Virus record (IMG/VR): IMGVR_UViG_2602041658_000005
Location: 1-64,000 of that record
Origin: a virus
Lineage: Duplodnaviria > Caudoviricetes
Reading direction: 5' to 3' (one strand)
DNA length: 64,000 nt
This document shows positions 6,526-26,318 of this stretch, piece by piece; positions within the stretch are counted from its first letter, which is position 1, and each line of letters begins with the position of its first letter. The notes under the pieces are model-generated. The model was not told where the DNA came from. It ran no database searches and saw only the letters and a list, made by a program, of their open reading frames with translations. The translations under genes were made by a program, and so were the position numbers.

Positions 6526-6772
6526 ATGAGTGAGAGTAATTTGGTTTTTATAAATGAGAGTGGCAAAGTCTTAACAACAAGTTTGAAAATTGCAGAGACT
6601 TTCGGCAAGGAACATAAGAATGTTTTAAAAGATATTCGGGGGTTGCAATGTAGTGAAGAATTTAACCGGCTAAATTTTGAGCCGGTCAGAATATTTGAAC
6701 GAGCAAAAACATAAGCAACCGATGTTTGTAATAACAAAAGACGGATTTACTTTGCTATATATAAACTTTTAA
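6526..6772 (+). pseudogene. Rha-family regulator fragment, frameshifted at ~6687 and truncated
   Basis: TTSLKIAETFGKEHKNVLKDIR...LNFEPV; shifted frame gives EYLNEQKHKQPMFVITKDGFTLL, paralogous to 10712..11506. Confidence 0.75.
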
Positions 6773-6786
6773 TGTTTAAGAGAAAA

Positions 6787-7489
6787 ATGTACGAGATAAA
6801 TAAATTTGACAATAAAAACAACATAACCTCTCTCGAAATCGCAGAGATAACAGGCAAACAACATCAACATGTATTGCGTGATATTGATAGTATTTTAAGG
6901 CAGGGTGTAGATGCGTCCAATTTTGGACTAACCTCTTATATAGATTCTTCAAACAGGAAACAAAGAATGTATAGCCTTACCCCGAAAGGTTGTTTAATAC
7001 TTGCAAGTGGCTACGATGTAGTGTTGCGTGAGAAAATCATTAACCGATTAGAAGAGTTGGAAATGGAGAAGAAAAGCGGAGGTTTTTTTGATTCCGCAGA
7101 CTTTTTCAGAAGCATTAATGCTTGCAGCCAAACAACAAGAGAAGATAGAGGAACAGCAAAGATTGATAGCAGAAAATAAGCCAAAAGCAGAGTTCTTTGA
7201 TGCAGTAACTAATAGTAAAGATGCAATCGAAATGAAAGCAGTCGCTAATGTGCTTAATTTTAAAAATATAGGAAGGAACAAACTTTTTGAGATTCTTAGA
7301 TGCAATAAGATATTGACAGAGCGAAATCTGCCGATGCAAAGATATATTGATTGCGGATATTTTAGAACTATTGAGCAAAAGTATAGCAAACAGAATGGTG
7401 ATATTTGTATCAATATTAAGACGGTTGTCTATCAAACAGGTGTTGCTTTTATACGAAAAGTATTAACAAATCTCGGATATACAGATTAA
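6787..7489 (+). pseudogene. Rha N-terminal domain + antirepressor C-terminal domain, frameshifted at a T7 run (7083-7089)
   Basis: ITSLEIAEITGKQHQHVLRDI in one frame, IPQTFSEALMLAA...KPKAEFFD...IGRNKLFEILR in the next; removing one T joins them. Confidence 0.8.
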
Positions 7490-7554
7490 CAACACTTTAT
7501 TTTTCAGTGTAACCAAACCTCGCCAAATAAGCGAGGCTTTATTTTTTAGAAAAG

Positions 7555-8217
7555 ATGAAAACAAATCAGATAATGATACGCCCAATGGGCATGTTTAGTG
7601 TAGAGCAGAGAACGAAAGATTCTATGTTTAATGCCACAGCTTTGCTCAAGCAATGGAACGCAACCTCGAAAGGTGATAGAAAGATGGAACTGTACTTCAA
7701 TTCTCCTAAGACACAGGAGTTTATAGATACTATTATGTCTAAAGAAAATTTACATACCCCGAAAATGGTGTATGTAAAATCCCGTGCTTCACGTGGTGCA
7801 AATGCTGGAACTTGGATGTCGCCTATCCTTTTCATTGACTTTGCTATGTGGATAAATCCCTCTTTCAAATATGATGTAATTAAGTTCGTGTTCGATAGGA
7901 TGATTGAATTTAGAAATAGTGCAGGCGATGCTTATAAAGACCTTGGGAGTGCGGTTCAAAAGATTGTTGCTCCAAACTTTATGTGCGTGGCGATGAAGAA
8001 AGTTGGTGAGGCATTGAATTGGATAATCTTCAATAAGCATGAGAAGGCACTCCGCAATAAACATGGCGATGAGGGACAAATGCGCTCTTTGTTCGACCTT
8101 GAGAGAGAGATAGCAATGCTTATAAACAAAGGTTTTATAAAAGATTATAAAGGCTTGATAGTTTACCTCCGGGACGAGTATAAACGCAGGAATATACCCG
8201 CTGTGTTTATGGAATAA
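7555..8217 (+). CDS. KilA-N domain protein
   Basis: QRTKDSMFNATALLKQWN, GTWMSPILFIDFAMWINPSF. Confidence 0.85.
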   Translation: MKTNQIMIRPMGMFSVEQRTKDSMFNATALLKQWNATSKGDRKMELYFNSPKTQEFIDTIMSKENLHTPKMVYVKSRASRGANAGTWMSPILFIDFAMWINPSFKYDVIKFVFDRMIEFRNSAGDAYKDLGSAVQKIVAPNFMCVAMKKVGEALNWIIFNKHEKALRNKHGDEGQMRSLFDLEREIAMLINKGFIKDYKGLIVYLRDEYKRRNIPAVFME

Positions 8218-8258
8218 AGAGTTACTTTAATTTTGTAGAAAGGAGAGAGGTGTACACA

Positions 8259-8945
8259 ATGATAAAATTAAGTAAAGATTTTATAGATAATTTCTCTTCA
8301 CGCGAGCAATTGGTTATGTTGCGATTGCTTCTTATAGCGGATGATAACGGATATGTAAGAATAAGCTATAGAGAGTTAGCAAAATCATGTGAGATAAGTC
8401 TGCAAGTTTGTAGGACTACACTAAAAAATCTTGTAATAAAAGACGCTGTAAAAAAGTATACCAACATAACAACTAACACAACAACTAACACAGCAGCTAA
8501 CACAGCAGCTAACACAGCAAGCACATTCGTAAGTATCTGTGATTACGATAATTACAGGGTTGGTAAAAAGAAATCAACACAGCAACTAACACAGCAATTA
8601 ACACAGCAATTAACACAACAATCAACGCAGCCGCTAACACAGGAGAACGTGAATAACTTGCAGCTTAAATGTAAGAAACGAGAGAAGGCTTTTGAGAAAA
8701 GTCTTATTCCTTTTGTTGTTTCGCGAGGTGGAGAATATCAACCTCAAATGATTAGAGAGTTTTTTAATTATTGGACGGAAAAAAACAAAACCGGGACAAA
8801 GATGCGCTTTGAGTTAGAAAAGACATGGGAAACTTCAAGAAGATTAATGACTTGGAAAAAGAGAAAGGGTTCTTCTTTAAAAACATCGTCCCAAACTATT
8901 CTTAATTCGTCTGAAATGAATTATGATAAAAATGAAGATTGGTAA
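8259..8945 (+). CDS. Replication initiator (lambda O-like) with internal iterons
   Basis: N-terminal HTH, central 12-bp repeats, C-terminal FFNYWTE..KMRFELEKTWE domain; upstream of DnaC-like gene. Confidence 0.75.
   Translation: MIKLSKDFIDNFSSREQLVMLRLLLIADDNGYVRISYRELAKSCEISLQVCRTTLKNLVIKDAVKKYTNITTNTTTNTAANTAANTASTFVSICDYDNYRVGKKKSTQQLTQQLTQQLTQQSTQPLTQENVNNLQLKCKKREKAFEKSLIPFVVSRGGEYQPQMIREFFNYWTEKNKTGTKMRFELEKTWETSRRLMTWKKRKGSSLKTSSQTILNSSEMNYDKNEDW
8462..8641 (+). repeat. Two blocks of 12-bp iteron-like repeats (~AACACAGCAACT), probable replication origin
   Basis: About 5 copies at 8462-8520 and 5-6 at 8575-8641. Confidence 0.7.
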
Positions 8946-8948
8946 AAT

Positions 8949-9533
8949 ATGGAAGATATAAATTTTAATAATGTTATAGAAAGGCTTTCAGATACTACTT
9001 ATAAACCAATGCCTCAATTGGTTCGTATTCAAATACCGAAAGCGAAGGAGTATCTTAAGCAGGGTTTAACTTATTTCTGTGGGAGTAAGGCTGAATGGAA
9101 CGATGATTATGAAAAGATAGCAGAGTGGTTGTCAGATAATAAGGGGAAAGGGCTGATGTTAGTTGGGGATTGTGGTATAGGCAAATCTTTAATAGGTATG
9201 AGAATATTGCCTTTATTGTTAAATCATTTTTGCAGAAAAGTGGTTACAATATGTACTGCAACGGAGCTGAATAAGAAACCGAACGAGGTAATAAATAAGC
9301 ATATAGTGTATATAGATGATGTGGGTACTGAAGACGTATCTAATATATACGGTAACAAACGAATACCTTTCACAGAGATGGTAGATGCGGCGGAAAGAGA
9401 CGGAAAGCTATTGATGTTTTCGACCAATTTAGACGATAAACATTTGTCTGCTAAATATGGAGACAGGACAATAGACAGACTTCATGCTATTACGCGCAAA
9501 ATAACGATACATGGTAAATCTTTAAGAAAATAA
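8949..9533 (+). CDS. DnaC/IstB-like ATPase (helicase loader)
   Basis: Walker A GDCGIGKS, Walker B YIDDVGTE, STNL, YGDRTIDRL. Confidence 0.85.
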   Translation: MEDINFNNVIERLSDTTYKPMPQLVRIQIPKAKEYLKQGLTYFCGSKAEWNDDYEKIAEWLSDNKGKGLMLVGDCGIGKSLIGMRILPLLLNHFCRKVVTICTATELNKKPNEVINKHIVYIDDVGTEDVSNIYGNKRIPFTEMVDAAERDGKLLMFSTNLDDKHLSAKYGDRTIDRLHAITRKITIHGKSLRK

Positions 9534-9543
9534 AAAAAGAGAT

Positions 9544-9789
9544 ATGGTACAAGGAGAAATAGAATTGAGCGAAGAAATGAAGCAAATTTTATCTACAAGT
9601 ATTTATGATGTAGGTTTTTCGCGAAGAACAATAAACGCTTTAGGTAATGCAGACCTAAGATACATCAAAGAGGTGGTAAATCTCACAGATGGGCAGCTTT
9701 TAAGAGTCCCAAATTTCGGACGGACTTGTTTAGAAGAGGTTAAAAACTATGCAAAAGAAAAAGGCTTAATAGTTGGCGGTAAATATTAA
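9544..9789 (+). CDS. Stand-alone RNA polymerase alpha-CTD-like protein
   Basis: FSRRTINAL...LLRVPNFGRTCLEEV resembles alpha-CTD LSVRSxNCL...LLKxxNFGRKSLxEI. Confidence 0.8.
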   Translation: MVQGEIELSEEMKQILSTSIYDVGFSRRTINALGNADLRYIKEVVNLTDGQLLRVPNFGRTCLEEVKNYAKEKGLIVGGKY

Positions 9790-9856
9790 CAAACGAAATG
9801 CAAGAGTTTTTTGCATAAATATTCAAAAACTCTATGATAATATATAAACAATATAT

Positions 9857-10360
9857 ATGAAAATAAAGATAAAGAAAATAAACAAGTTAGCGAAGTTTCC
9901 TTATAAAAAGCATACAGACGACTTCTGCTATGACCTGTACGCCACATCATGCGAAGAGATAGCCCCAAACGTTTATAAGTATGGTTTTGGTATCGCTATA
10001 CAGATAGAACGTGGAGAAGAAGAAGTGATTGAGATAGGAAATGAAAAAACACGAAAGTATGTGAGCATAGACACCTCTAAGATGCCCATGCTGTTTGACA
10101 TAGACATTCGTCCACGCTCATCTGTGTGGAAAACAGGGCTGGTGCTGTCTAACAGCGTAGGAACGATAGATGAAGGTTATACAGGCGAAATATCAGCCGT
10201 ATTCTATCATGTAGTCCCTACACTACCTATATACAAGGTTGGGGACAGAGTAGCGCAGATGAAGATAGGTCTTACTCTACCTATAGACTTTGAGATAGTG
10301 GAAGAACTCAAAGAAACAGAGCGCAAGGCAGGAGGATATGGAAGTACGGGGTTAAAATAA
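9857..10360 (+). CDS. dut: Trimeric dUTPase
   Basis: YDL, IRPRSS, GTIDEGYTGEI, GDRVAQ, RKAGGYGSTG motifs. Confidence 0.9.
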   Translation: MKIKIKKINKLAKFPYKKHTDDFCYDLYATSCEEIAPNVYKYGFGIAIQIERGEEEVIEIGNEKTRKYVSIDTSKMPMLFDIDIRPRSSVWKTGLVLSNSVGTIDEGYTGEISAVFYHVVPTLPIYKVGDRVAQMKIGLTLPIDFEIVEELKETERKAGGYGSTGLK

Positions 10361-10372
10361 GCATAAAGGAAA

Positions 10373-10699
10373 ATGAACGAAAGTAAAGAAATAAAAGACT
10401 TGGTTCCCATTGAGGACAGGAATGGTCAGAAAGCGGTAAGTGCAAGAATGCTTCATGCTTTTTTAGGCAGCAAACAAGAGTTTACCAACTGGATAAAGAA
10501 CAGGATTGACAAGTACGGATTCGTTGAAAATCAGGACTTTGAGGTTTTTGATAATTTTGTCAAAAACCCAAATGGGGGAAGACCTCAAAAGGAATATGCT
10601 CTATCAATCGGAATGGCAAAAGAATTGTCTATGGTTGAGGGTAACGAGAAAGGAAAGCAAGCACGAAGATACTTTATTAAATTTGGTAAAAGAATATAA
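10373..10699 (+). CDS. AntA/AntB antirepressor N-terminal domain protein
   Basis: AVSARMLHAFLGSKQEFTNWIKNRI...MAKELSMVE...ARRYFI. Confidence 0.85.
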   Translation: MNESKEIKDLVPIEDRNGQKAVSARMLHAFLGSKQEFTNWIKNRIDKYGFVENQDFEVFDNFVKNPNGGRPQKEYALSIGMAKELSMVEGNEKGKQARRYFIKFGKRI

Positions 10700-10711
10700 A
10701 TAAAATAACTT

Positions 10712-11506
10712 ATGAGTGAGATTAATTTAGTATTCAAAGGAGAGAATAACCAAGCACTGACAAACAGTTGGTTGGTGGCTAAAAAGTTTGGGAAAGAACA
10801 TAAGCATGTTCTTGAAGCTATTCGGAAATTAACGAGGACAGCCGAAAATTCGGCTGTCATATCAATGTTTTGTGAATCAGCATATTACAATGAGCAGAAC
10901 AAGGAACAGCCGATGTTTGTAATGAACCGAGACGGTTTTACATTGCTCGCTATGGGTTTTACAGGTGAAAAGGCATTAAAATTCAAAGTTGAATATATCA
11001 ATGCCTTTAATAAAATGGAGGAAGTAATTAAGAATGGTACTTACCAAGTTCCTCAAACTTTCTCCGATGCGTTGTTGCTTGCAGCCAAGCAGCAGAAAAA
11101 GATAGAAGAACAGCAAAGAACGCTTATGCAAAACGCAACAGAAATAAAAGATCTTTCCGACGCTGTTGCTACGATGAAGCCTAAAGCCGATTATTGCGAT
11201 TTGATTTTGAGGAACACGGCTACCATCTGTACGACAAGTATAGCGCAGAATTACGGTATGAGCGCAAATGCTTTTAACATCCTACTTCGCAATTTAGGTA
11301 TTCAGCATAAGATTGCGGGGCAATGGATTTTAAAAGCAAAATACCTCCCTTACGGTTACGTTCAAAGCGAATCTGTCGTAATAGAACATAATGATGGTAG
11401 GAAAGAAACAAAGCAGCATTCAAAATGGACGCAAAAAGGACATTTGTTCTTGTATGAGAAACTAAAGGAACACGGAGTGTTGCCACTTATTGAACAAAAT
11501 GATTAA
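10712..11506 (+). CDS. Rha-family regulator with antirepressor C-terminal domain
   Basis: VAKKFGKEHKHVL, MNRDGFTLLAMGFTGEKALKFK, IAQNYGMSA, KWTQKG. Confidence 0.88.
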   Translation: MSEINLVFKGENNQALTNSWLVAKKFGKEHKHVLEAIRKLTRTAENSAVISMFCESAYYNEQNKEQPMFVMNRDGFTLLAMGFTGEKALKFKVEYINAFNKMEEVIKNGTYQVPQTFSDALLLAAKQQKKIEEQQRTLMQNATEIKDLSDAVATMKPKADYCDLILRNTATICTTSIAQNYGMSANAFNILLRNLGIQHKIAGQWILKAKYLPYGYVQSESVVIEHNDGRKETKQHSKWTQKGHLFLYEKLKEHGVLPLIEQND

Positions 11507-11521
11507 AAGAAAAGAGACCTT

Positions 11522-11968
11522 ATGAGAAAGAAAATATCTATTTGGTTTGAAACCACCGTCAGCTATAAAAGGCTGACAGAAAAGGAATTAGAGAAACAGG
11601 TAAGAGAACGCTATGTGGTGGAAGCATGCAGCTTTGGCGAGACAGAAAAGACAGTTATCGAAGAAGTGCTGTCTATGTCTACGGACGGCGAAATAGACGT
11701 TCAAAAGATAGCCAGAGCAAGCTATCAAGACGTGTATTTTGATGATGAAAAGCACTGCGGTATTTATTACAAAGTAAAGCTGTCATCATGCTATATCACA
11801 GATAGCGGAGACGAGAAAGAAGAAACCGTCCACTTACTCGTAGAAGCAAGCAGTATAGAAAATGCCAGAAAGAAAACGGCAGAAGCATTGTCGTTACATG
11901 ACGGATGTGGTACAGAAATTACAGGTATGACGAAAGTGCGGTTTGCAGATGTGTTGGAAAACGAATAA
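11522..11968 (+). CDS. DUF4494 family protein
   Basis: WFETTVSY...ERYVVEACSFGETE...LLVEASSIENA. Confidence 0.75.
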   Translation: MRKKISIWFETTVSYKRLTEKELEKQVRERYVVEACSFGETEKTVIEEVLSMSTDGEIDVQKIARASYQDVYFDDEKHCGIYYKVKLSSCYITDSGDEKEETVHLLVEASSIENARKKTAEALSLHDGCGTEITGMTKVRFADVLENE

Positions 11969-12111
11969 AATGGAAGACAGAGATGAGCAAAAGGATAGTA
12001 GTATGTTCCGCTGAGAAAGAGAAGCAAGCACGAAACTTAACATTCCGAGTTCTACAATTTGCAATAGTTATAGATATGGCATAATCGTGAAAGGAGGGTA
12101 TCAGTTTAATT

Positions 12112-12597
12112 ATGTATAAGAATCATTTGATTTTGCAAGACATACATGTTGGTGATTGGGTACAAGAGTATAGCGAGATAACAGACAATTTCTCGATGCC
12201 TATGTATGTATCTGCAATCTTTGCAGACGGAACCGTTTATCTTGATTTTAATGGCAATGAAGGCGATGTTTGGGAAACTAATATTGAAGATATTGCACCT
12301 ATCACGATGGATAAAGAAGCACTGAAAGGATTTGGATTTGAACTTGACTTTGAAACAGGAGGTTTAAAGCTATCAATTGGCGATAATCATATCTATATAC
12401 GTAAATTTCAATACTACTTTGATAAAAATAATTGGGCTATTCAAATTGGAGAAGATGTAAAGTTTTTTAACAAATGGTTTATTCAAATTGGAGGAGATGC
12501 AAGGTTTACCCCTGTTTGTTGTTACATTCACGAATTACAACACGTATATTACAAATATGCGCACAAGCCTCTTATTCTTAATTGGAAAGGTGTTTAG
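12112..12597 (+). CDS. Hypothetical phage protein
   Basis: 161 aa, IHVGDWV...YIHELQH. Confidence 0.7.
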   Translation: MYKNHLILQDIHVGDWVQEYSEITDNFSMPMYVSAIFADGTVYLDFNGNEGDVWETNIEDIAPITMDKEALKGFGFELDFETGGLKLSIGDNHIYIRKFQYYFDKNNWAIQIGEDVKFFNKWFIQIGGDARFTPVCCYIHELQHVYYKYAHKPLILNWKGV

Positions 12598-12601
12598 TTT
12601 T

Positions 12602-13368
12602 TCTATAATATAAGTTTATTTTTAGTCTGCCATCATCGAACTATCGGTGGTGGCTATTTTACTTGAATTATGATTGAAATGGAGTCTATTTACATGAGGC
12701 TACCAATAGCCTTTGATAGAGATGGCTGTGAACGAGATAGAGATATAAAGAAAAGAACGTGCAGTAATGATGGGAATAAAAAAGATTGACTATGAATAAA
12801 GGCAAAGAGAGACAGGTATATTTTTGTTCTTCTGAAAAGAACGGTAAGATAGTTGATATGGCTTTTAAATATAGCAAATATTCTGCTTTCAAATATAAAA
12901 GAGATCAAGAGAAATTAGGAAGGACGGTTAGCTTTTTCATAATAGTGGAATATTGCAAAGACCAAACAGATGTAGACGATAGGGGGCATAAAGGTGTGAA
13001 ACTTTCGCATTTAAAAGGTTGGTCGAAGCGTATCATGTGCGTAGAAACAGGAGAAGTATACAACACTATTAGAGAGTGCCAAAAAGCAAACGGAATAGGG
13101 AATTGGGTTATTCGTAAGGCGGTGTATGAAAATAAGGTTGTAAATGGTAAACATTACAAGATAATAAGTTAATAGAAAAAACGGGAATAAATATCTAAAA
13201 GACAAAATCTACAAAGCTGTAAAAAAGTTGTGTTTTATTGTTTAAGAAAAAGCATATATGATTGTATGTGGGATTTAGATATAAAAACAACGATAGAATT
13301 TGATTACTCTATAATATAAGTTTGAATTTTTAATCTGCCATCATCGAACAATCGGCGGTGGCTATTTT
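12602..13368 (+). repeat. ~60-bp direct repeat pair (12602-12660, 13308-13368), each with a terminator hairpin
   Basis: TCTATAATATAAGTTT...TCTGCCATCATCGAACwATCGGyGGTGGCTATTTT at both positions. Confidence 0.75.
12792..13172 (+). CDS. NUMOD1-like DNA-binding domain protein
   Basis: C-terminal RIMCVETGEVYNTIRECQKANGI. Confidence 0.6.
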   Translation: MNKGKERQVYFCSSEKNGKIVDMAFKYSKYSAFKYKRDQEKLGRTVSFFIIVEYCKDQTDVDDRGHKGVKLSHLKGWSKRIMCVETGEVYNTIRECQKANGIGNWVIRKAVYENKVVNGKHYKIIS

Positions 13369-13379
13369 TTTTGGAAAAT

Positions 13380-13922
13380 ATGAAAATGGATTTGTTAGCA
13401 GGGAGTGGCAATGATGAGTTTTATACACCACCATACGCCATATATCCTATACTAAAATACATTAAACCAAATTCTTCTATTTGGTGTCCGTTTGATAGTG
13501 AAGAAAGTTTCTTTGTTAAGATATTTAGAAGGAAAGGACATAAAGTGTGTTATTCTCATATCAGCAATGGGGAAGATTTCTTCCTTATGAACGTTCCAGA
13601 ATGTGATTACATTATATCAAATTCCCCTTATTCTCTTAAAACAGAAGTACTTAAAAGGCTATTCCAAATAGGTAAACCTTTCGCTATGCTCGTTGGAGTT
13701 GTTGGTATTTTTGAGAGCAAAAAGAGATTTGATTTGTTTCGTTCAAACAAATCTGAGGTTATGTATTTTGATAAGCGCATTTGTTATATGCAAGATTATA
13801 AAGAAAAGAGGGAATCGTTAAATCCCCCATTTAGTAGTGTTTATATATGCTCTAATATACTTCATAAACAGATAGTTTTCGAAGAATTGAACAAAGAAAA
13901 TCAATTAAATTTATTTGTATGA
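13380..13922 (+). CDS. Phage N6-adenine DNA methyltransferase (motif IV reads NSPY)
   Basis: DEFYTP, IWCPFD, DYIISNSPYS, KPFAML. Confidence 0.8.
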   Translation: MKMDLLAGSGNDEFYTPPYAIYPILKYIKPNSSIWCPFDSEESFFVKIFRRKGHKVCYSHISNGEDFFLMNVPECDYIISNSPYSLKTEVLKRLFQIGKPFAMLVGVVGIFESKKRFDLFRSNKSEVMYFDKRICYMQDYKEKRESLNPPFSSVYICSNILHKQIVFEELNKENQLNLFV

Positions 13923-18615: not shown

Positions 18616-18924
18616 ATGATTACGAATGATAAGAAGCCAGAGAGCCTTTATGTATATTCTATTCAGCTTTCTACTATAAAATTAGTTCTCCAAAAGTGTT
18701 TAGATTTAGGATATTTTGATGCTAAGACGAAAGAAGATGCTTTCTATGATAAAGCGATTATCAAGTTTTGCTTATCCAACAATCTCGCTGCGGACGAATT
18801 TGTATTAGGGGGACATGATTTCAAATATAGAAATCACAAGAGAGATAAAAGGGGAAAGATGGTGAGTGTAGAAGTATATTTACCTAAACTGGAAAAAAAT
18901 AAACATAAACAAAAAGATTTTTAG
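18616..18924 (+). CDS. Hypothetical protein
   Basis: 102-aa ORF in operon. Confidence 0.6.
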   Translation: MITNDKKPESLYVYSIQLSTIKLVLQKCLDLGYFDAKTKEDAFYDKAIIKFCLSNNLAADEFVLGGHDFKYRNHKRDKRGKMVSVEVYLPKLEKNKHKQKDF

Positions 18925-18927
18925 ATA

Positions 18928-19716
18928 ATGGTAAAAGAATTTGAACTCACTAAAAATAGTGGTAGCGAGGAGATAAAAAAGTATTTTCAAAAGATATTAG
19001 AGCTAAGCAAGTCGGGCGAGAAATATCCCATTAACCTTGATGATGTTTGGGGCTTGGTGTATGGACAAAAGTCTGACGCTGTTGCTGCATTAAAGGAAAG
19101 TTTTATGCAAGATGTTGATTACCAAGTTTTAAGGAAAAATCCTCAAAACCCAACAGGAGGAAGACCCTCTAATATTTACTATATCTCTGTTCCTTGCATG
19201 GAGTTCTTTGTAGCTCGCAAAGTAAGGTCTGTTTTTGAGGTTTACAGACAAGTGTTTCATAAAATTGTGGAAGAAAGATGGGTACTGCCAAAGAATTTTT
19301 CGCAAGCATTACGTCTTGCCGCTGACCAATATGAGCAGATAGAAGCGCAGAACAAGCAGATAGAAGCCTTGAGCGATGAAGTGGTCGAGCTAAAAAAGAA
19401 AACCGATTATCTCGAAATAATATTACAAAGTAAGGAGACGGTTACAATAGGTCAGATTGCCGCAGACTACGGAATGACACCGCAAGAGATGAACGGCTTA
19501 CTCGCTAAAATGCACATACAGCACAAAGTGAACGGACAATGGCTGCTGTATGCAGACTATGTGCGAAAAGGATATACGCACAGCGAAACGATACCTATAA
19601 AGCACAAAGATGGCAGAGCCGAAGTGAAAATGTTTTCTAAGTGGAGACAGTCGGGAAGGATTTTCTTGTATAATAAACTAAAAGAACGTGGTATAATTCC
19701 TTTAATAGAAAAGTAA
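18928..19716 (+). CDS. Antirepressor-type protein (AntA-related N-term + Ant C-term)
   Basis: YPINLDDVWGLVY, DYQV...GGRP; IAADYGMT...IQHKVNGQW...KWRQSG. Confidence 0.8.
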   Translation: MVKEFELTKNSGSEEIKKYFQKILELSKSGEKYPINLDDVWGLVYGQKSDAVAALKESFMQDVDYQVLRKNPQNPTGGRPSNIYYISVPCMEFFVARKVRSVFEVYRQVFHKIVEERWVLPKNFSQALRLAADQYEQIEAQNKQIEALSDEVVELKKKTDYLEIILQSKETVTIGQIAADYGMTPQEMNGLLAKMHIQHKVNGQWLLYADYVRKGYTHSETIPIKHKDGRAEVKMFSKWRQSGRIFLYNKLKERGIIPLIEK

Positions 19717-19721
19717 AGATT

Positions 19722-20132
19722 ATGAGCGAAAAAATAATTAAGGTTGGTAAATATGCCGTGTTACACGAAAGAGAAGCGAAGCGTCTCTTAGAATTTGCTG
19801 GTTATGATGAGACTATGCCTATAAGCGAGGTTAAAGATGATGACCAGAAACTTGCCTCGTGTAAAGAAATAGAGTTCGCAAAGCTAACCAAGCAAATGCT
19901 TGAAACTTTCAAAAAGAAAAACGCAGACTACGGAGATAGTACTACGCAGACATTCAAAGAGTTTGGATTGATGTCTTACGCTGTTAGACTGAACGATAAA
20001 CTAAACAGGGTTAAGTCGTTCTGTAAGAAAGGTGTGTTGGAAGTGAAAGAAGAGAAAATAATAGACACGCTTATGGATATGAGTGCATATTGTCTGTTGG
20101 CGGTTATGGATATTAAGAATCAAAAGGAGTAA
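19722..20132 (+). CDS. DUF1599 / nucleotide-modification-associated domain protein
   Basis: FKKKNADYGDS, RLNDKLNR, DTLMDMSAY. Confidence 0.8.
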   Translation: MSEKIIKVGKYAVLHEREAKRLLEFAGYDETMPISEVKDDDQKLASCKEIEFAKLTKQMLETFKKKNADYGDSTTQTFKEFGLMSYAVRLNDKLNRVKSFCKKGVLEVKEEKIIDTLMDMSAYCLLAVMDIKNQKE

Positions 20133-20136
20133 AACT

Positions 20137-20526
20137 ATGAGATACGAAAATTTAAAAATTACGGAAATAGGTGATGAATATATCATTCTTGAGAATGATG
20201 ATAAAGAAAAGTTAATGGTTAGCAGTTATCATTCTACCGATTGCTGCGAGTATCACTATTTGGATTTTTCAGCAGTTAAAGATATGATAGAAGATGATAT
20301 GCTTTTTTGCATAGATACCGAAGACCCTATGTCATTCTTTTGCAAGGTAGAGGATTTTGGTATCAGACTACTTCCTACAAATAATCACCCTATATCTGTT
20401 CCCGGATATGGAATCAATAACGGATATTATAACAGCCACATAGACCTTATTGTGGAGGATATGAGGTTTCATAAAGAGATACTGAAGATTGATGCTTCTG
20501 AATGTCAAAACATAAAATGGGGATAA
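20137..20526 (+). CDS. Hypothetical phage protein
   Basis: HSTDCCE and GINNGYY motifs. Confidence 0.65.
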   Translation: MRYENLKITEIGDEYIILENDDKEKLMVSSYHSTDCCEYHYLDFSAVKDMIEDDMLFCIDTEDPMSFFCKVEDFGIRLLPTNNHPISVPGYGINNGYYNSHIDLIVEDMRFHKEILKIDASECQNIKWG

Positions 20527-20694
20527 ATGATGCAATTCTTTAAAAATATTTTACTTAAACTTTCATGCTTGCATGACTGGGAACTCAGAAGAAGGGTATA
20601 TACTTACGAGGATGAGTCTTGTAAATATCCATATAAGTGTGAGATACTTTATGTGTGTCGAAAGTGTGGAAAATTCAAGAAAATAAAAATATGA
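20527..20694 (+). CDS. 55-aa Zn-ribbon-like small protein
   Basis: CLHDW...CRKCGK; below ORF-track cutoff. Confidence 0.55.
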   Translation: MMQFFKNILLKLSCLHDWELRRRVYTYEDESCKYPYKCEILYVCRKCGKFKKIKI

Positions 20695-20909
20695 GTAAGA
20701 TAATAGAAAACAAGGCTGACAAGGCTTTTCCTTGTCCAAAAGATGAAGACACCGTTGCTTCTATGCGTGAGAAAAAGAGAGGATACATAAAAGGGTATGA
20801 GCAGGCACTTAAAGACATGAAAGGACATCTTGACCTTGCTGCTATCGCTGGTAAAAGTTTTATGGTGCTTGATATGTGTAAATGGATTGAGGGGAGATTA
20901 AAGGATTAG
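20691..20909 (+). CDS. Hypothetical protein
   Basis: ATGA-coupled ORF. Confidence 0.6.
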   Translation: MSKIIENKADKAFPCPKDEDTVASMREKKRGYIKGYEQALKDMKGHLDLAAIAGKSFMVLDMCKWIEGRLKD

Positions 20910-20935
20910 GGGGAAAATATAAAAGGACTTAAGAT

Positions 20936-21736
20936 ATGGATAAAATTAAAGTTTTTAATTATAACGGAAGCAATATAACGTTCAGTAGTGAAAACGGAGT
21001 GATGGTCAATGCGACAGAAATGGCGAGGGCTTTTGATAAGAGACCAATTGACTATCTCCGTCTTCCAACTACCATAGAGTTGATAAATGCAATTGTGAGA
21101 AAATCTCACATTTCAGAAAGTCAGTTAATTATAACCAAGCAAGGCAGCTCTATTAATGGCGGTGGAACGTGGTTACACGAAGATATAGCCTTGGATTTCG
21201 CTCAATGGCTTTCAGTTGATTTTAGGCTATGGTGTAACGACCGCATCAAAGAGTTGCTAAAGTACGGCATGACCGCTACACAACCAACTTTGGAGCAAAT
21301 GGTAGATAATCCCGACCTTGTGATAGAACTTGCTGTGAAGCTGAAAACAGAGAGAGCAGAAAAAGCGAAATTGGAGCAGGAAAGGGAAATGCTTAATAAC
21401 AAGTTAGAGCAACAAGCCCCGAAAGTAGCTTTTGCCAATGCCATAGAAGCAAGTAAATCAAGTTGTCTAATTGGTGAGCTTGCAAAGATACTCACACAGA
21501 ACGGCTATACGATAGGACAGAACAGGCTTTTTGAATGGATGCGAAACAACGGCTATCTTGGAACGAAAGGCGAATATTACAACATACCTAACCAAACGTA
21601 TATCGAGCAAGGATTATTCGATTTGAAAAAAGGTGTTCGTAGTGGTAATGATGGTGTGATGCACACCACGATAACAACGAAAGTAACAGGGAAAGGATGT
21701 AGGTATTTTATCAATAAATTTTTAGGAGGAAGATAA
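20936..21736 (+). CDS. KilA-N domain + antirepressor C-terminal domain protein
   Basis: VNATEMARAF, GTWLHEDIALDFAQWLS; IGELAKIL...IGQNRLFEWMR...VTGKG. Confidence 0.9.
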   Translation: MDKIKVFNYNGSNITFSSENGVMVNATEMARAFDKRPIDYLRLPTTIELINAIVRKSHISESQLIITKQGSSINGGGTWLHEDIALDFAQWLSVDFRLWCNDRIKELLKYGMTATQPTLEQMVDNPDLVIELAVKLKTERAEKAKLEQEREMLNNKLEQQAPKVAFANAIEASKSSCLIGELAKILTQNGYTIGQNRLFEWMRNNGYLGTKGEYYNIPNQTYIEQGLFDLKKGVRSGNDGVMHTTITTKVTGKGCRYFINKFLGGR

Positions 21737-21738
21737 TT

Positions 21739-21969
21739 ATGGCTGATATAAATTGGTTAGCAGAGATAGTAAAAGTTCATAAATTTCATATAGAATTTTA
21801 TTATTCAAGTATTACTGATTGGTGCTTGATAATAACAAGAAAAGGGTGTAACAAAGGCGGTGGCGACATTGTTGTTTTTGATGACGAATGCAATGATTTA
21901 TCTTTGCTATTATCAAAGGCAGAGGTCGCTGTTAAAGAGTATTGTCTTGAAGAATTAGGAGGGTATTAG
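21739..21969 (+). CDS. Hypothetical protein
   Basis: 76-aa ORF in operon. Confidence 0.6.
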   Translation: MADINWLAEIVKVHKFHIEFYYSSITDWCLIITRKGCNKGGGDIVVFDDECNDLSLLLSKAEVAVKEYCLEELGGY

Positions 21970-21972
21970 ACT

Positions 21973-22746
21973 ATGTTACGATTAATGGTTAAGCCGAAAG
22001 ACGGCAAAGAGGGAGTGATAATGTTTGTAAAATCTTACAAACGAAATTGGCTGTTTAGAAAAAAAATAAAACTTACACCTTTAATAGGGGAGGCTATGGT
22101 CTTCGATTTAAACGAAACCGTAAAGGCGTATGAAATGAAAATTGAAATTGACGATATTGTTAAAACAGAAGTCGTGCATGACTCTGAAATAAATTACTAT
22201 CGAAAATTTCATCAGTTTTATATCATTGCTAAACATACAAAGAAAGGACTTGAATATTATAGTTCTGAAAAAGAGTTTTACGATGAAAGGTTGAAACGTA
22301 GAGTGCAAATGCCCGACTTTACTACGGAAATAGAAAAAGCAGAATTTTCTAAAAGTCTTGTAAGTGTAAAAAATATGCTTACAAGAATGAGGGTAAGTAA
22401 TAAAGACAAGGTGGCTTCTTATAGTGTTTTTCTTACCATTAGAAACGACTTATACAAACCAAATATTATTTTCGTACTAACAAATAAGAAGACAAAGAAC
22501 GTTTATTTTTTAAAGAAATATACGTTAAAGGGTAAAAAGAACTCAAGTATACAAGTGTGTGATAATATGCAAGACGCGTTATCTGTAAAATATGATGAGG
22601 CTCTAAAAATATATGATGATTTACATGCTAAGCATAAGAATTTCTCTGTAAATTGTCATCTTCGCAAAGATAACGAGAATGTAAATGCGAAAGATTTTAA
22701 GTTTAAACGTGAATTTTTACAAATAGGATTTAAGCTAAAAGTCTGA
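21973..22746 (+). CDS. Hypothetical basic protein
   Basis: 257-aa ORF. Confidence 0.7.
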   Translation: MLRLMVKPKDGKEGVIMFVKSYKRNWLFRKKIKLTPLIGEAMVFDLNETVKAYEMKIEIDDIVKTEVVHDSEINYYRKFHQFYIIAKHTKKGLEYYSSEKEFYDERLKRRVQMPDFTTEIEKAEFSKSLVSVKNMLTRMRVSNKDKVASYSVFLTIRNDLYKPNIIFVLTNKKTKNVYFLKKYTLKGKKNSSIQVCDNMQDALSVKYDEALKIYDDLHAKHKNFSVNCHLRKDNENVNAKDFKFKREFLQIGFKLKV

Positions 22747-22786
22747 TAAAGAAGACAATAGCAATATGTAAATATTTTTATAAAAG

Positions 22787-23722
22787 ATGAGGATGTTAGA
22801 TAGAAAAGAAGAACAAGAGCGCAGAGAGTTTATTTTAAAAGAATTGAGAAAGAAAAATCTTGCTTTATTTTATAAGGATTTTAGTATTGATCATAGGTTG
22901 TGGTTAAGAGAACTCACAGATAAATACAAAGAGAGGGGTTTATTGCCCCTCTCACCCCTTATCTTAGCAGACTATTATAAAGAATATGAAGATAAACTTT
23001 TAGCAGTTTTAGTGGCTTGTATTTTGCTCGATGACAATGAAAGAGTTATGGAGCAAGTTTCAGCTATGAGAAAGATATTAGGCGAACACCCTTATAAAGA
23101 TTTTTACTCTAATCGCACGTTCGTGCAGCTTTCAAACGGAGCTAATCAGACGAAGTATATTGCTTATTTTAGGTCAACAAAATATTATGAAATATCTAAA
23201 TTATTTGATATTATATGGAATATTGAACACGACTATGGTAAAAAGATGTTCGAGGTGTTTTTTGAAACGATAACACTAAAAGAATATACACCTTATAATG
23301 CTTTGTTGTTATTGTTGAGAGATTTCCCTGTAGGGCGTCCGGAGTGGCGTGTAAATCTTGCCCTGCTGCGTTTATGCGATAAAAAAGGCATAAGTGAACC
23401 TTTGTGGGATTTAGGTTGCTTGGACGAAAAATTAGAATGCCCCCTAAGTAAAGAAATAAAAGATTATTTAAACACGTGGTTTTTTGAATGGTCGCGTACT
23501 TTTACCTTTAAAGAAGTATGCGCGATACTCGGTTTTGAGAGAGAAATAGATGTGTATTATAGTATGCTTGCTTTCAGAGAGTTATCTCGCTACAAGCCAA
23601 AGGAAGTAAAAGACTATTTAAAGCTGTATTACACGCAGTTTAAAAACGGAACGTTAGGACTTAGGGGTAGAAAGAAGCTCAAAGCAAGAATGCCAAAAAT
23701 AGAGTTTGAGCATAGCAAGTAA
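22787..23722 (+). CDS. Hypothetical protein
   Basis: 311-aa ORF ending the rightward arm, followed by inverted repeat 23724-23781. Confidence 0.7.
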   Translation: MRMLDRKEEQERREFILKELRKKNLALFYKDFSIDHRLWLRELTDKYKERGLLPLSPLILADYYKEYEDKLLAVLVACILLDDNERVMEQVSAMRKILGEHPYKDFYSNRTFVQLSNGANQTKYIAYFRSTKYYEISKLFDIIWNIEHDYGKKMFEVFFETITLKEYTPYNALLLLLRDFPVGRPEWRVNLALLRLCDKKGISEPLWDLGCLDEKLECPLSKEIKDYLNTWFFEWSRTFTFKEVCAILGFEREIDVYYSMLAFRELSRYKPKEVKDYLKLYYTQFKNGTLGLRGRKKLKARMPKIEFEHSK

Positions 23723-24003
23723 AAAATGCCCATCTTTTCTAAAATAAAAATGTTAAGGTATTATGAATAATTATGCAACTTTGATGAAAAGACGGGCATT
23801 TAAATTAAATACTACTTCTTTTTGTTTTTATTCTTATCTTTCTTTTTGTTAATCTTCTCATCTATAGCCAAGTATATAAGGAAGATAATAAAACAAACAG
23901 CTAATACAGGTAAAACATACTTTATAAAATCCCATACTATAATGAGAACCACCTCTATGATTGTGAAAAGAAAACCTAAAATAAACATAATTGCAAAAAT
24001 TTA

Positions 24004-24945
24004 TTAGTTGTTAAAAAAAGTCATTGCATTGGAACCGGGTCTTTTTCCGTCAAGACAGATATAACGGTCTGTCATATTGGTCGTACTATGCCCAGCGAGG
24101 GTTTTTATTATTTCTACGGGGACATCTTTCCCTGCTAAAATAGTGCAGAAAGTTCTTCGTGCTGTGTGTAAAGTTACAAACTCCCACTTTTCGCCTTTTT
24201 GAAGCCTGCCTTTTACGTACAATTGGCAATCTTCATTTATTCCTATATTTCTACAAATACGCTGAATAGTTCTATTTGCTACGGCGGTAGTATGTGTTTT
24301 GCATCTTTCGTTAATATACTTATGGAGCCATTTATGAACAGGTAGAGTAACCTCTGTTTTTGTTTTTTGAGAAACATAAGATAGGAAACCATTAGTTATG
24401 TTATCTAATGTCATTCGCTTTGCATCGGAGCTGCGACAACCTGTCAATACGCATTTCATGAATAGATTTTTTACGTCTTTTTCAGTTTCTGTTTTCGGTA
24501 AATAATCATTTAACTTTTCTAACTCGTTCTCTGTGAGCGCGATATGCTGCGATGGAACTTTCTTTCCACTTAAAACTCCCATTATATTTTTGCAAGGGAT
24601 AACGTTCTCTTCTGAATATTCGTTGAGAAAGGCTTTTATTATATTAAGATACGTACACGCTGAATTTGGAGAAACTTTATCTTTAATATAAGATGCAATT
24701 CTTACAAGGTTAATCTTTGATAGATCTTCCCATGTTATTAAATCTTTTTGCAATGCTTCCCCCATCATTCTAATTATTTGTGGTCGTTGTGTATTCTTTA
24801 AAAGAAAAGCACCTGCAAAGGATTTTTTCCACTCATCAAAAGAATATTCTTCTATATTGTTCATAAAAGGGTTTGCAAGAATAGACGCAAACTGCCTATC
24901 GGTACATCTCTTGCCAAGTACTTTTTTCAAATCTTCTCTTTCCAT
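24004..24945 (-). CDS. Tyrosine recombinase / integrase family protein
   Basis: LTGCRSSD, SQKTK, HTARRTF, LAGHS, RY catalytic residues. Confidence 0.9.
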   Translation of the reverse strand: MEREDLKKVLGKRCTDRQFASILANPFMNNIEEYSFDEWKKSFAGAFLLKNTQRPQIIRMMGEALQKDLITWEDLSKINLVRIASYIKDKVSPNSACTYLNIIKAFLNEYSEENVIPCKNIMGVLSGKKVPSQHIALTENELEKLNDYLPKTETEKDVKNLFMKCVLTGCRSSDAKRMTLDNITNGFLSYVSQKTKTEVTLPVHKWLHKYINERCKTHTTAVANRTIQRICRNIGINEDCQLYVKGRLQKGEKWEFVTLHTARRTFCTILAGKDVPVEIIKTLAGHSTTNMTDRYICLDGKRPGSNAMTFFNN

Positions 24946-25075
24946 AATTATTATAATTTTAAATGTTTTTTATTGTGAGCGAGGTAGGTTTTTCTCCTGC
25001 CACGCTCTGAAAATTACGAAAACAAAAAATGCCCGTATAATAAGGAACGTTAGCGCATACCCTTTTATAAAACAT

Positions 25076-25309
25076 TTAAGATTTACTTTCTTTTTTCACT
25101 GCACTCCAATAAGCCTCAACACCCATCATATTTTGAATGGGCATAGTTAATTTATAAAACACATCTTCTATGTCTATATTATACTCGTCAGTGTTTACCT
25201 CTTCATGAAAATACTTGTAAAGTTTTTCTATGATTGTAGCCATTTCTGCGATATTGTTGCTTACTTTTACGGTTGTGCTTTTTGAATTATTATTATTAAT
25301 ATATGCCAT
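25076..25309 (-). CDS. Hypothetical protein
   Basis: 77-aa ORF. Confidence 0.55.
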   Translation of the reverse strand: MAYINNNNSKSTTVKVSNNIAEMATIIEKLYKYFHEEVNTDEYNIDIEDVFYKLTMPIQNMMGVEAYWSAVKKESKS

Positions 25310-25529
25310 CGTTGTATTTTTTATATGTTTATTTATTGATTAATAACTATTATTCTCTATATTTTTTATAGTTCTTTATTTTATTTTTGCAAGTGTGTGA
25401 TTGCTTGTGTTACCTCCAAAAAGATGATTTATGTATGCTAACCCTTTTTGCGTGCAAACACATTTCATTACTATTAAATCGGGGTGATTTTTTCTTTTTA
25501 TAGGAGGAAGCTCTGTTAAGACGAAATTT

Positions 25530-26318
25530 TTAAATTCCTAACTCTTTTAATAATTCTCCAAATTTGCCAACATACCATTGTGGTTGTGTTTCTTTCGGGT
25601 TGTTTGGGTTTACTTGATTCTCACCAAACGCTTTGCCTTTCTCTGTAATAGAATAGAATTTGTGTTCCTTTCCTTGAAAGCCTTGTCGGGTAAGGTTACT
25701 AAGGAACCCTTTCTCTAAAGCAACTTTATTAAATTTCTGTGCGCTTATTTCCTTGTTATTGCGTTTGAGTAGTTCTGTTGCAGATAACATTTGGTCAATT
25801 GATGTTGTGTAGTCGGGAGTAGGCAGTCCGAGAGGGTCGCCTATTTTCTTTAACAATGATAGCTTAGAGCTATCGTTAAGGTGTAGTATATCACCAACGC
25901 CTTTTATCCACGAAATCTTGGCGTTAATGATTTTAGATGAAATGGAATGTCTTTTTGTTTCTTTTTTCTTTGCGAGTTCTTCGCATCGAATAAAGTACTG
26001 ACGAGCCATTTTCCCCCTCTCGTTGTTCTCTACCATTGAAAGTTCCTTTGCCATTTCAACGGAAATAGCGTATTCGTCTTGTGGTCTACCCCCATTAGGG
26101 TTTTTCACAAATTTGTGAAAAACTTCAAAGTCTTGATTTTCAACGAATCCGTATTGGTTAATACGCTGATTAATCCAATCTGTAAAATTACGTTTGTTTT
26201 CTAAGAATGTGTGTAACATTCTTGCACTTACGGCTCTCTTGCCGTTACTCTCATTGATAGGGATAAGCTCCCCGATGTTTTGGTTTTGGTTTTGTTCCAT
26301 ACTAATAGTTTTGAACAT
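25530..26318 (-). CDS. AntA/AntB antirepressor
   Basis: AVSARMLHTFL...MAKELSMVENNERGKMARQYFI; close paralogue of 10373..10699. Confidence 0.88.
   Translation of the reverse strand: MFKTISMEQNQNQNIGELIPINESNGKRAVSARMLHTFLENKRNFTDWINQRINQYGFVENQDFEVFHKFVKNPNGGRPQDEYAISVEMAKELSMVENNERGKMARQYFIRCEELAKKKETKRHSISSKIINAKISWIKGVGDILHLNDSSKLSLLKKIGDPLGLPTPDYTTSIDQMLSATELLKRNNKEISAQKFNKVALEKGFLSNLTRQGFQGKEHKFYSITEKGKAFGENQVNPNNPKETQPQWYVGKFGELLKELGI

What the first reader, a model, noticed from the sequence alone, without database searches (positions are those of the whole stretch)
6665..26123. All eight antirepressor-type genes carry an internal palindrome with variable stem and A/T centre
Seen: Rha ACCGGCT-aaattttg-AGCCGGT (6665-6686); Rha GTCCAA-tt-TTGGAC (6915-6928); KilA-N TTTACATACcCC-gaaaat-GGtGTATGTAAA (7749-7778); AntA GGTTTTTGA-taattttg-TCAAAAACC (10543-10568); Rha GACAGCCGAA-aa-TTCGGCTGTC (10837-10858); GTTTTaAGGA-aaaa-TCCTcAAAAC (19126-19149); KilA-N TGTGAGA-aaa-TCTCACA (21094-21110); AntA GTTTTTCACAAATTTGTGAAAAAC (26100-26123, perfect 24-mer). 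Each sits roughly 45-75 codons into the N-terminal DNA-binding domain of three unrelated families. The AntA paralogues have identical flanking peptide but differ inside the palindrome (FDNFVK vs FHKFVK) with a compensatory G-C to C-G swap. The 6526 gene is frameshifted right after its palindrome. Inference: symmetry rather than sequence is maintained, suggesting a hairpin-templated diversification hotspot, a domain-shuffling site or an autoregulatory operator. I know of no description of this but cannot search the literature.
Basis: partly seen in the sequence, partly recalled or inferred. Interest (0 to 1): 0.85.

Follow-up and report, generated by a model that had tools for sequence, protein, structure and literature searches.

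The report
Conserved DNA palindromes inside antirepressor genes
Each antirepressor-type gene of this prophage carries a short DNA palindrome at one fixed spot of its DNA-binding domain, and relatives across many bacterial phyla keep the symmetry while changing the letters, so a nucleic-acid signal of unknown function is written on top of the protein code.

Summary
Together they exceed synonymous-codon shuffles: summed score 67 against 44.9 +/- 3.9, reached by 0 of 400 shuffles.

Relatives give the stronger evidence. AntA, two KilA-N subfamilies and two Rha subfamilies keep a dyad at the same codons while the arms and the encoded residues change in complementary pairs. In AntA this holds in bacterial genomes of many phyla, at 24-58% GC.

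The dyad is not a recombination breakpoint and is not hypervariable. It shows no bias towards G-U pairs on the transcribed strand. Diversification, domain shuffling and a sense-RNA hairpin are therefore not supported.

My best reading is inferred, not shown. It is a selected DNA dyad acting in cis, most likely a private site for the DNA-binding domain that the gene encodes. The nearest parallel is the BstA-aba self-immunity pair.

The main rival is a functionless palindrome that perpetuates itself by replication template switching.

Earlier notes of this scan report the same phenomenon in ORF6N and KilA-N genes on other DNA. This window adds AntA and Rha. My literature searches found no description.

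The parts
6665..6686 (+). Dyad in the Rha gene remnant 6487-6714 (7-bp arms, then a mismatch, then 3 more pairs). The gene is frameshifted within the 3' arm and truncated.
   Evidence: Relative L119 has a 24-nt dyad and L105 a 14-nt dyad at the same codons. ssDNA fold -7.5 kcal/mol, z -3.6.
6915..6928 (+). Dyad in the Rha gene 6772-7179 (6-bp arms, SNFG codons).
   Evidence: In relatives L365-L444 the outer pair switches G-C to A-T, the loop base varies T/C, and the dyad reaches 22-28 nt in some.
7749..7778 (+). 30-nt dyad in the KilA-N gene 7555-8217 (codons 65-75).
   Evidence: In alignment A4, 87.4% of cells are paired against 68.1% shuffled, and covariation is 0.424 against 0.128 (0 of 500 shuffles). 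It is the top covarying centre of the whole gene. In the AlphaFold2 model it codes a loop after helix 51-63 plus the start of strand 73-76.
10543..10568 (+). Dyad in the short AntA gene 10373-10699 (codons 57-66).
10837..10858 (+). Dyad in the Rha+ANT gene 10712-11506 (10-bp arms, AENSA codons).
   Evidence: (p=0.01). The third bases of the Ala and Ser codons pair in 11 of 11 distinct relatives (C-G 7, T-A 3, G-C 1).
19126..19149 (+). Dyad in the AntA-like N-terminus of the ANT gene 18928-19716.
   Evidence: Relatives L291 and L313 have the same frame with a different complementary inner triplet.
21094..21110 (+). Dyad in the KilA-N+ANT gene 20936-21736 (7-bp arms, 3-nt loop).
   Evidence: At the family site, 30 of 51 relatives have a palindrome against 3.4 expected. 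Top covariation centre of the gene, score 8 against 3 for the next.
26100..26123 (-). Perfect 24-nt dyad in the AntA gene 25530-26318 (codons 66-73, VFHKFVKN).
   Evidence: (p=0.007). In the model it codes strand 44-51 and the turn of the beta hairpin.

Best explanation
Each gene carries a DNA dyad at one fixed place of its N-terminal DNA-binding domain. That place is the stretch between the helix before the beta-hairpin 'wing' and the first wing strand. The dyad has 6-15-bp arms around an A/T-rich centre of 0-8 nt.

Shown here:
- The dyad is a nucleotide-level element kept at the same codons in relatives.
- Arm bases, synonymous third positions and whole codons change in reverse-complement pairs.
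- The encoded residues simply follow.

Inferred:
- The constraint acts on DNA, because there is no G-U strand bias.
- The paired changes arise by template switching within the palindrome and are retained by selection.
- The dyad works in cis as a private site for the DNA-binding domain encoded around it. This would serve autoregulation or a self mark, as aba DNA does for the KilA-N protein BstA. That would explain why the eight paralogues each have a different sequence.
For: AntA, IMG/VR relatives:
- 14 of 15 distinct sequence contexts have 9-12 of 12 pairs, with different arm sequences.

AntA, 60 distinct sequences from viruses and from bacterial genomes of many phyla:
- 76.0% of cells are paired against 65.4% shuffled.
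- Covariation is 0.355 against 0.175 (0 of 500 shuffles); slid controls give 0.106-0.163.
- The Val codon is GTT in 43 of 43 sequences.
- The third base of the Phe/Tyr codon tracks Lys/Glu in the partner codon: T-K 12, C-E 23, T-E 4, C-K 0, Fisher p=5e-7.
- The inner codon pair are exact reverse complements in 30 of 60.

Other families:
- KilA-N. Rha.
- The dyad is the single top covarying centre across the whole gene in AntA, KilA1 and KilA2.

Further support:
- A capsid-gene palindrome of equal strength is absent from 3 of 3 homologues.
- The eight dyads differ from one another, and none recurs elsewhere in the record.
- Palindrome bases share more information with residues 43/47/51/55 (one helix face) and 74-81 (the wing) than other variable bases do.
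- Precedent: aba is a DNA-based, cognate element inside the bstA locus (PMC8585504, passages read).
Against: - No binding or phenotype data exist.
- Loop length at the KilA2 site varies from 0 to 8 nt, and 12 KilA2 sequences have no palindrome of score >=5. A dimer site with fixed half-site spacing does not predict this.
- Inner arms differ between proteins that are 60-70% identical, so specificity would have to change often.
- The residue-base association is confounded: the palindrome codes a strand that may pack against the same helix and wing.
- There is no second copy of any dyad in promoter regions.
- One control palindrome, in a structural gene, is also conserved with one compensatory change in 3 of 3 relatives. 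Conserved coding palindromes are therefore not exclusive to these genes.
- The element is weak or absent in some Firmicute and Campylobacterota phages: scores 5, 6, 6 and 0 among 6 named phages.
Confidence: 0.4

Rival explanations
1. A functionless, self-perpetuating quasi-palindrome. Once present in an ancestral gene, replication template switching between the arms copies any change in one arm onto the other faster than point mutation erodes it. The protein merely tolerates this in a permissive segment.
For: - Flips that need two transversions are common: column pair 20-31 shows CG 20, GC 12, UA 6, AU 5.
- Some copies are perfect through the centre.
- There is a frameshift in the 3' arm of the 6487 dyad.
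- The dyad diverges at about the same rate as its surroundings.
- There is no strand bias.
- A palindrome in an unrelated structural gene is also conserved.
- Template switching that creates and maintains hairpins is published (PMC8794818 and PMC3820800; search listing and start of abstract only).
Against: - The element recurs in three Pfam families with no detectable sequence relation.
- It survives across phyla and from 24 to 58% GC.
- Arms of only 6-7 bp, poor substrates for snap-back, are also conserved and covary.
- A capsid palindrome of equal strength is not kept.
- The innermost pair is unpaired in 52 of 60 AntA sequences.
Confidence: 0.25
2. An mRNA hairpin, for example an RNase III site, a ribosome pause or a stability element, that controls expression of these genes.
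For: - Stem covariation with a 2-4-nt unpaired centre.
- All eight fold as hairpins, z -2.1 to -5.8; the windows were chosen around the palindromes.
- RNA control exists at this locus: a c4-2 RNA lies just upstream of the AntA gene.
Against: - G-T and A-C mismatches are balanced: 32:22 in AntA across phyla and 2:12 in the viral sets. A sense-strand RNA should favour G-U.
- The outer arms are runs of A-U pairs, kept even in GC-rich genomes.
- Rfam has no family at any of the sites.
- Nothing explains why only this class of genes, at this place in the protein, would need such a hairpin.
Confidence: 0.15
3. A structure-specific DNA signal read by some other factor: a hairpin or cruciform used in replication, recombination or packaging, or sensed by a host defence.
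For: Pairing rather than sequence is conserved, the centre is A/T-rich, and loop length varies.
Against: - There is no link to replication or packaging genes.
- It is not a recombination breakpoint.
- Confinement to these domain families is left unexplained.
Confidence: 0.12
4. One reading: a hairpin-templated diversification hotspot or a domain-shuffling site.
For: The encoded peptide differs strongly between relatives. One gene is broken at its dyad.
Against: The divergence ratio is 1.0-1.4 and no close pair has different dyads. Breakpoints lie at the domain junction, not at the dyad.
Confidence: 0.04
5. Chance, or a by-product of the conserved peptide and A/T-rich codon usage.
For: - Four of the eight are individually unremarkable.
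- Peptides such as VF..FVKN or AENSA give palindromes in about a fifth of synonymous shuffles.
Against: The joint test, the synonymous-site coupling, and the covariation with slid and shuffled controls.
Confidence: 0.02

Closest known systems
BstA and its anti-BstA (aba) DNA element of Salmonella prophage BTP1 (Owen et al. 2021, PMC8585504; passages read)
   Same: The gene of a KilA-N-domain protein holds a short element that acts as DNA, not as RNA or peptide. It is specific for its own protein and different in each homologue.
   Different: aba is 63 bp, overlaps the start of the gene and is marked by terminal direct repeats. The text does not use the words palindrome or inverted repeat. The elements here are 14-30-bp dyads lying 42-75 codons inside the domain, in AntA and Rha genes as well, and have no functional data.
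Phage lambda O protein and the ori-lambda iterons inside the O gene; parS inside parB/spo0J (recalled, no call)
   Same: Dyad-symmetric binding sites for a protein lie inside that protein's own coding sequence.
   Different: Those sites are conserved in sequence, belong to replication or partition machines, and are not reported to evolve by paired codon changes. There is only one site per gene here.
Template-switch (quasi-palindrome) mutation that creates and maintains hairpins (PMC8794818, PMC3820800; listing and start of abstract only; Ripley's model recalled)
   Same: It explains simultaneous complementary changes in both arms, perfect palindromes and frameshifts at the arms.
   Different: It is a mutational route, not a function. 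By itself it does not explain the restriction to these domain families.
[quoted passage not shown] 2002 recalled)
   Same: These are the gene class concerned. Here too, recombination shuffles N- and C-domains at their junction.
   Different: The passage I read does not mention a coding palindrome.

Membership tests
Cis-acting self-site of a DNA-binding protein (aba / ori-lambda / parS type) | A dyad or repeat DNA element lies inside the protein's own gene. | tested here: met
   Eight of eight genes; conserved in relatives.
Cis-acting self-site of a DNA-binding protein (aba / ori-lambda / parS type) | The encoded protein binds the element specifically. | not testable with these tools
   No DNA-protein prediction or assay is available. 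The association of palindrome bases with one helix face and the wing is confounded by protein packing.
Cis-acting self-site of a DNA-binding protein (aba / ori-lambda / parS type) | Fixed spacing of the two half-sites. | tested here: inconclusive
   Spacing is constant in most AntA and KilA1 sequences. In KilA2 the loop varies from 0 to 8 nt.
Structured cis-regulatory RNA | Stem covariation with tolerated G-U pairs on the transcribed strand. | tested here: not met
   Covariation is present, but G-T:A-C is 32:22 and 2:12. No Rfam family lies at the sites.
Quasi-palindrome kept by template switching | Complementary double changes including transversion flips; indels at the arms; the same behaviour in unrelated genes. 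| tested here: inconclusive
   Flips are common and one arm frameshift is seen. Of two control palindromes, one is conserved and one is not.
Targeted diversification (DGR-like) | Local hypervariability against conserved flanks. | tested here: not met
   Divergence ratio 1.01-1.43; no close pairs with different dyads. I did not search for a reverse transcriptase.
Recombination or domain-shuffling site | Phylogenetic discordance across the site. | tested here: not met
   The left-right distance correlation is 0.77-0.93 at the dyad. The minima lie at the domain junction.
Intrinsic terminator | A G+C-rich stem followed by a T run. | tested here: not met
   The arms are A/T-rich and no T run follows; seen directly in the sequences.

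The most novel reading that the evidence does not exclude
Every N-terminal domain family of the phage 'Bro network' (KilA-N, AntA, Rha, and ORF6N according to earlier notes of this scan) writes a private DNA dyad into its own coding sequence, and its product recognises that dyad. This gene-embedded self-tag would let each protein tell its own genome from foreign DNA, or shut off its own gene. Template switching would let tag and gene change together. It would be a general, undescribed cis-code for one of the largest classes of phage regulatory and defence genes.
Probability: 0.22. Interest if true: 0.9.

Novelty: new variant of a known kind. Interest (0 to 1): 0.78.

Why it matters
Antirepressor-type 'Bro network' genes are among the commonest and least understood phage genes. 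One branch, BstA, is a defence system with a DNA self-immunity element.

A dyad conserved across phyla at one fixed place of their DNA-binding domains means that these genes carry two overlapping codes. It gives a concrete, cheap experiment: test each domain against each dyad. That experiment would show what these domains bind and how paralogues avoid cross-talk.

It also bears on annotation and evolutionary analysis. Residue pairs there covary because of DNA, not because of protein contacts. It is also a natural test bed for template-switch mutation.

Tried and rejected
- **Diversification hotspot:** rejected. The dyad's divergence is 1.01-1.43 times that of the N-domain.
- **Domain-shuffling site:** rejected. 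Breakpoints lie at the domain junction.
- **One common repressor for all eight genes:** rejected. The arms share no sequence, and none recurs in the 79-kb record except in the AntA paralogue pair.
- **c4-2 RNA pairing with the AntA dyad:** rejected. The best complementarity is 9 nt, elsewhere in the mRNA.
- **Homology of KilA-N and AntA:** not shown. hhalign gives probability 0.8%. Foldseek places KilA-N with Mbp1 and gives AntA no clear match.
- **Solved structures by sequence:** none useful.
- **Other Bro-network families in the record, as a test of prediction:** no Bro-N or ORF6N. The four ANT hits are the known genes.
- **Sequencing runs:** no RNA holder is listed. The laid runs were contigs only and showed no variant inside a dyad. 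Two contigs stop at or in a dyad, which an assembler would do anyway.
- **Residue-base mutual information:** a lead only, because it is confounded.
- **Literature:**
  - 'KilA-N' + 'palindrome': 0 papers.
  - Antirepressor, inverted repeat, hairpin: nothing relevant among the 15 papers listed of 249.
  - ORF6N, AntA, pRha, KilA-N, palindromic, dyad symmetry: nothing relevant among the 20 papers listed.
  - Supplements were closed, so the aba mutation maps of PMC8585504 (its Figures S5-S6) were not seen.
- **Rows dropped:**
  - In one search, 42 distinct sequences from the 80 loci were scored. The rest failed my motif pattern or were duplicates.
  - In one search, 37 rows with indels at the site (duplicate rows among them) were left out of A3, which holds 60 distinct rows.
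  - In one search, 2 rows were left out of A4.
  - In one search, 17 loci without the motif were not scored. One search scored their representatives at 0, 8 and 7.


Full report
**What the window is.** The window is the first 64 kb of a single 79,173-base record. IMG/VR classes it as a provirus, about 75% complete. It has about 35% G+C, and its nearest DNA matches are Bacteroides phages. Between 6.4 and 26.4 kb it holds nine ORFs of the antirepressor ('Bro network') kind:
- Rha 6487-6714, a fragment.
- Rha 6772-7179, with an overlapping ANT ORF at 7088-7489 in another frame.
- KilA-N 7555-8217.
- AntA 10373-10699, N-domain only.
- Rha+ANT 10712-11506.
- An ANT gene at 18928-19716. Its N-terminus matches my AntA profile over 34 columns that include the dyad.
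- KilA-N+ANT 20936-21736.
- AntA 25530-26318 on the minus strand.

Palindromes are common in this A/T-rich DNA. There are 214 perfect ones with a stem of at least 6 and a loop of at most 8 in the window. With one mismatch allowed, the record holds 352 of score >=6 and 30 of score >=9.

Against 300 synonymous-codon shuffles per gene, only the 10712 Rha (p=0.01) and the 25530 AntA (p=0.007) stand out alone; four of the eight are ordinary. Jointly the set is not ordinary:
- The summed best score within codons 35-80 is 67, against 44.9 +/- 3.9 in shuffles (maximum 57; 0 of 400 reach it).
- The eight per-gene p values are lower than those of the 107 other ORFs (Mann-Whitney p=0.0006).
- All eight fold as hairpins with DNA parameters, z -2.1 to -5.8. 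The windows were chosen around the palindromes.

**Homologues decide the matter.** I fetched relatives from IMG/VR for AntA (41 loci), 10712-type Rha (80), 7555-type KilA-N (80), 20936-type KilA-N (80) and 6772-type Rha (80). I also fetched AntA relatives from bacterial genomes (80 loci). Their record titles include Segatella, Riemerella, Flavobacterium, Bacteroides, Bartonella, Arsenophonus, Achromobacter, Haemophilus, Moraxella, Clostridium, Leptotrichiaceae, Desulfamplus, Phycisphaerales and Magnetobacterium.

*AntA.* In the viral set, 14 of 15 distinct contexts have 9-12 of 12 pairs at the same eight codons, while the peptide runs VFHKFVKN, VFAKFGEN, VFNKFVEN, VYNKIIEN and so on. Three of these variants are perfect 24-mers of different sequence. 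Across phyla, 30 of 42 distinct sequences scored have a palindrome of score >=8 at the site and 37 of 42 have >=6, at 24-58% G+C.

On 60 distinct sequences (alignment A3) the counts are:
- 76.0% of cells paired, against 65.4% shuffled.
- 97 cells changed on both sides, against 48.
- Covariation 0.355 against 0.175 (0 of 500 shuffles each); slid controls 0.106-0.163.
- The innermost pair is paired in only 8 of 60, so there is a small A/T loop.

Synonymous sites obey the pairing:
- The Val codon is GTT in 43 of 43 sequences.
- The third base of the Phe/Tyr codon follows Lys or Glu in the partner codon (12/23/4/0, p=5e-7).
- The two inner codons are exact reverse complements in 30 of 60.

Six named phages gave scores 5, 10, 6, 11, 6 and 0. 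The element is therefore widespread, but weak or absent in some lineages.

*KilA-N.* In the 7555 type, a 30-nt dyad is kept while the peptide changes between HTPKMVYV, HRGNSPYV, DRGNYPYH, HTQDSTYV and NTPKMVYL. Counts are 87.4% paired against 68.1%, and covariation 0.424 against 0.128 (0 of 500); slid controls are at most 0.127.

In the 20936 type there are 18 distinct palindromes with quite different arms and loops of 0-8 nt at the same place, while 12 sequences have none of score >=5. A joint protein alignment puts the two KilA-N sites in the same segment.

*Rha.* In the 10712 type, the AENSA/AEKSA codons form the core. The third bases of the Ala and Ser codons pair in 11 of 11 distinct sequences (C-G 7, T-A 3, G-C 1), and the outer arms covary. 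In the 6772 type, the SNFG codons form the core. The outer pair switches G-C to A-T, the loop base is free, and some relatives extend the dyad to 22-28 nt. Relatives of the 6487 remnant carry 14- and 24-nt dyads there.

*Internal control.* Scanning every possible dyad centre along whole-gene alignments, this site is the single top covarying centre in AntA, KilA1 and KilA2. It does not stand out in the gappy Rha alignment.

*External controls.* A capsid-gene palindrome of equal strength (55779-55800) is absent from 3 of 3 homologues. A palindrome in a DUF6706-like structural gene (56381-56404) is kept in 3 of 3, with one compensatory change.

**What it is not.**
- Not a breakpoint. Distance matrices left and right of the dyad correlate at 0.77-0.93; the minima (0.14-0.58) lie at the junction of the N- and C-domains.
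- Not hypervariable. The divergence ratio is 1.01-1.43, and no close pair of sequences has different dyads.
- Not a shared operator. The eight differ, and none recurs elsewhere.
- Not a known RNA family. The only Rfam hit is a c4-2 RNA just upstream of the 25530 AntA gene, and it does not pair with the dyad.
- Not evidently a sense-strand RNA structure. G-T against A-C mismatches are 32:22 and 2:12.

**Place in the protein.** In the AlphaFold2 model of the 7555 KilA-N domain (pLDDT 88.9), residues 65-75 form the link from helix 51-63 into strand 73-76. The fold matches Mbp1.

In the AntA model (pLDDT 86.6), the dyad codes strand 44-51 and the turn of a beta hairpin that follows helix 25-36. 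In both models the dyad therefore sits between the helix before the hairpin and the hairpin's first strand.

The residues there range widely, for example His, Asp, Ala, Asn, Ser, Pro, Thr, Leu and Arg at one AntA position. The protein tolerates what the DNA dictates.

**Mechanism.**

*Shown:* a nucleotide-level constraint on complementarity between two arms, tied to one place in these domain genes, over very wide phylogenetic distance.

*Inferred:* the constraint is on DNA, and the paired changes arise by template switching. Many of them are transversion flips such as CG to GC, and one gene carries an arm frameshift. The published mechanism is known to me only from listings and the starts of abstracts (PMC8794818 and PMC3820800).

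As to function, the only thing these genes share is the kind of domain they encode. I therefore favour a cis site for the gene's own product, private to each paralogue. The nearest tested parallel is BstA, a KilA-N protein whose locus holds a 63-bp element, aba. It acts as DNA and is cognate to its own protein, but it overlaps the gene start and is not described as a palindrome (PMC8585504, passages read).

One exploratory result fits this reading. AntA palindrome bases share more information with residues 43, 47, 51 and 55 (one face of the helix before the hairpin) and 74-81 (the hairpin) than other variable bases do. This result is confounded, because the dyad-coded strand may pack against those same residues.

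The main rival is a functionless, self-perpetuating palindrome. It fits the flips, the perfect copies and the one conserved control. It fits less well the recurrence in three families with no detectable relation, the conservation of 6-bp arms and the capsid palindrome that is not conserved.

**Novelty.** My searches found no description. Notes of this scan report the same kind of coding palindrome in ORF6N and KilA-N/BstA-like genes of other genomes. I did not test those notes, except for KilA-N in IMG/VR. They gave me the BstA lead and the own-product reading. This window adds AntA and Rha, shows AntA conservation across phyla, and shows eight private dyads side by side in one genome.

Noticed in passing
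window 26323-26399 (-): An Rfam c4-2 RNA (RF02944, 54 bits, E 4.5e-9) lies immediately upstream of the start of the AntA gene 25530-26318. The arrangement resembles an immI-type antisense-RNA-controlled antirepressor of phage P1; that comparison is recalled. Its best complementarity to the AntA mRNA is 9 nt and is not at the dyad.
   Followed up: partly
window 6487-7489: Decayed copies. The Rha gene at 6487 is frameshifted in the 3' arm of its dyad, and its Rha-like reading continues in the +1 frame to about 6765. The Rha ORF 6772-7179 and the ANT ORF 7088-7489 overlap in different frames, like a split Rha-ANT gene. The AntA gene at 10373 has only the N-domain.
   Followed up: partly
window about 10750-10775, and the same codons in L042-L121: A second, smaller dyad lies in Rha genes at codons 15-20 (LTNS motif). 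21 of 53 distinct relatives hold a palindrome there against 1.5 expected, in at least two arm versions; one relative reaches 10 bp.
   Followed up: partly
window 56381-56404: A 9-bp-stem palindrome lies inside a DUF6706-like structural gene (0 of 300 synonymous shuffles reach it). It is conserved in 3 of 3 IMG/VR homologues at 61% identity, with one compensatory change (Asn codon third base together with Val to Ile).
   Followed up: partly
L042-L281 and window genes 7555, 10712, 20936, 25530: Left-right distance correlation drops sharply at the junction of the N-domain and C-domain (to 0.14 in KilA1, 0.39 in KilA2, 0.43 in AntA, 0.58 in Rha). This is a direct trace of domain swapping in these genes.
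   Followed up: yes
window 28000-38900: Fifteen of the 30 strongest palindromes of the record (score >=9) lie between about 28 and 39 kb, in the minus-strand block. Several form near-duplicate pairs, such as 32302/32881 and 34293/36121. Other notes of this scan deal with them.
   Followed up: no
window 6663 and 7757: Contigs of coded run X2 that match the window end just before or inside two of the dyads. This is most likely an assembly effect of palindromes, not biology.
   Followed up: no
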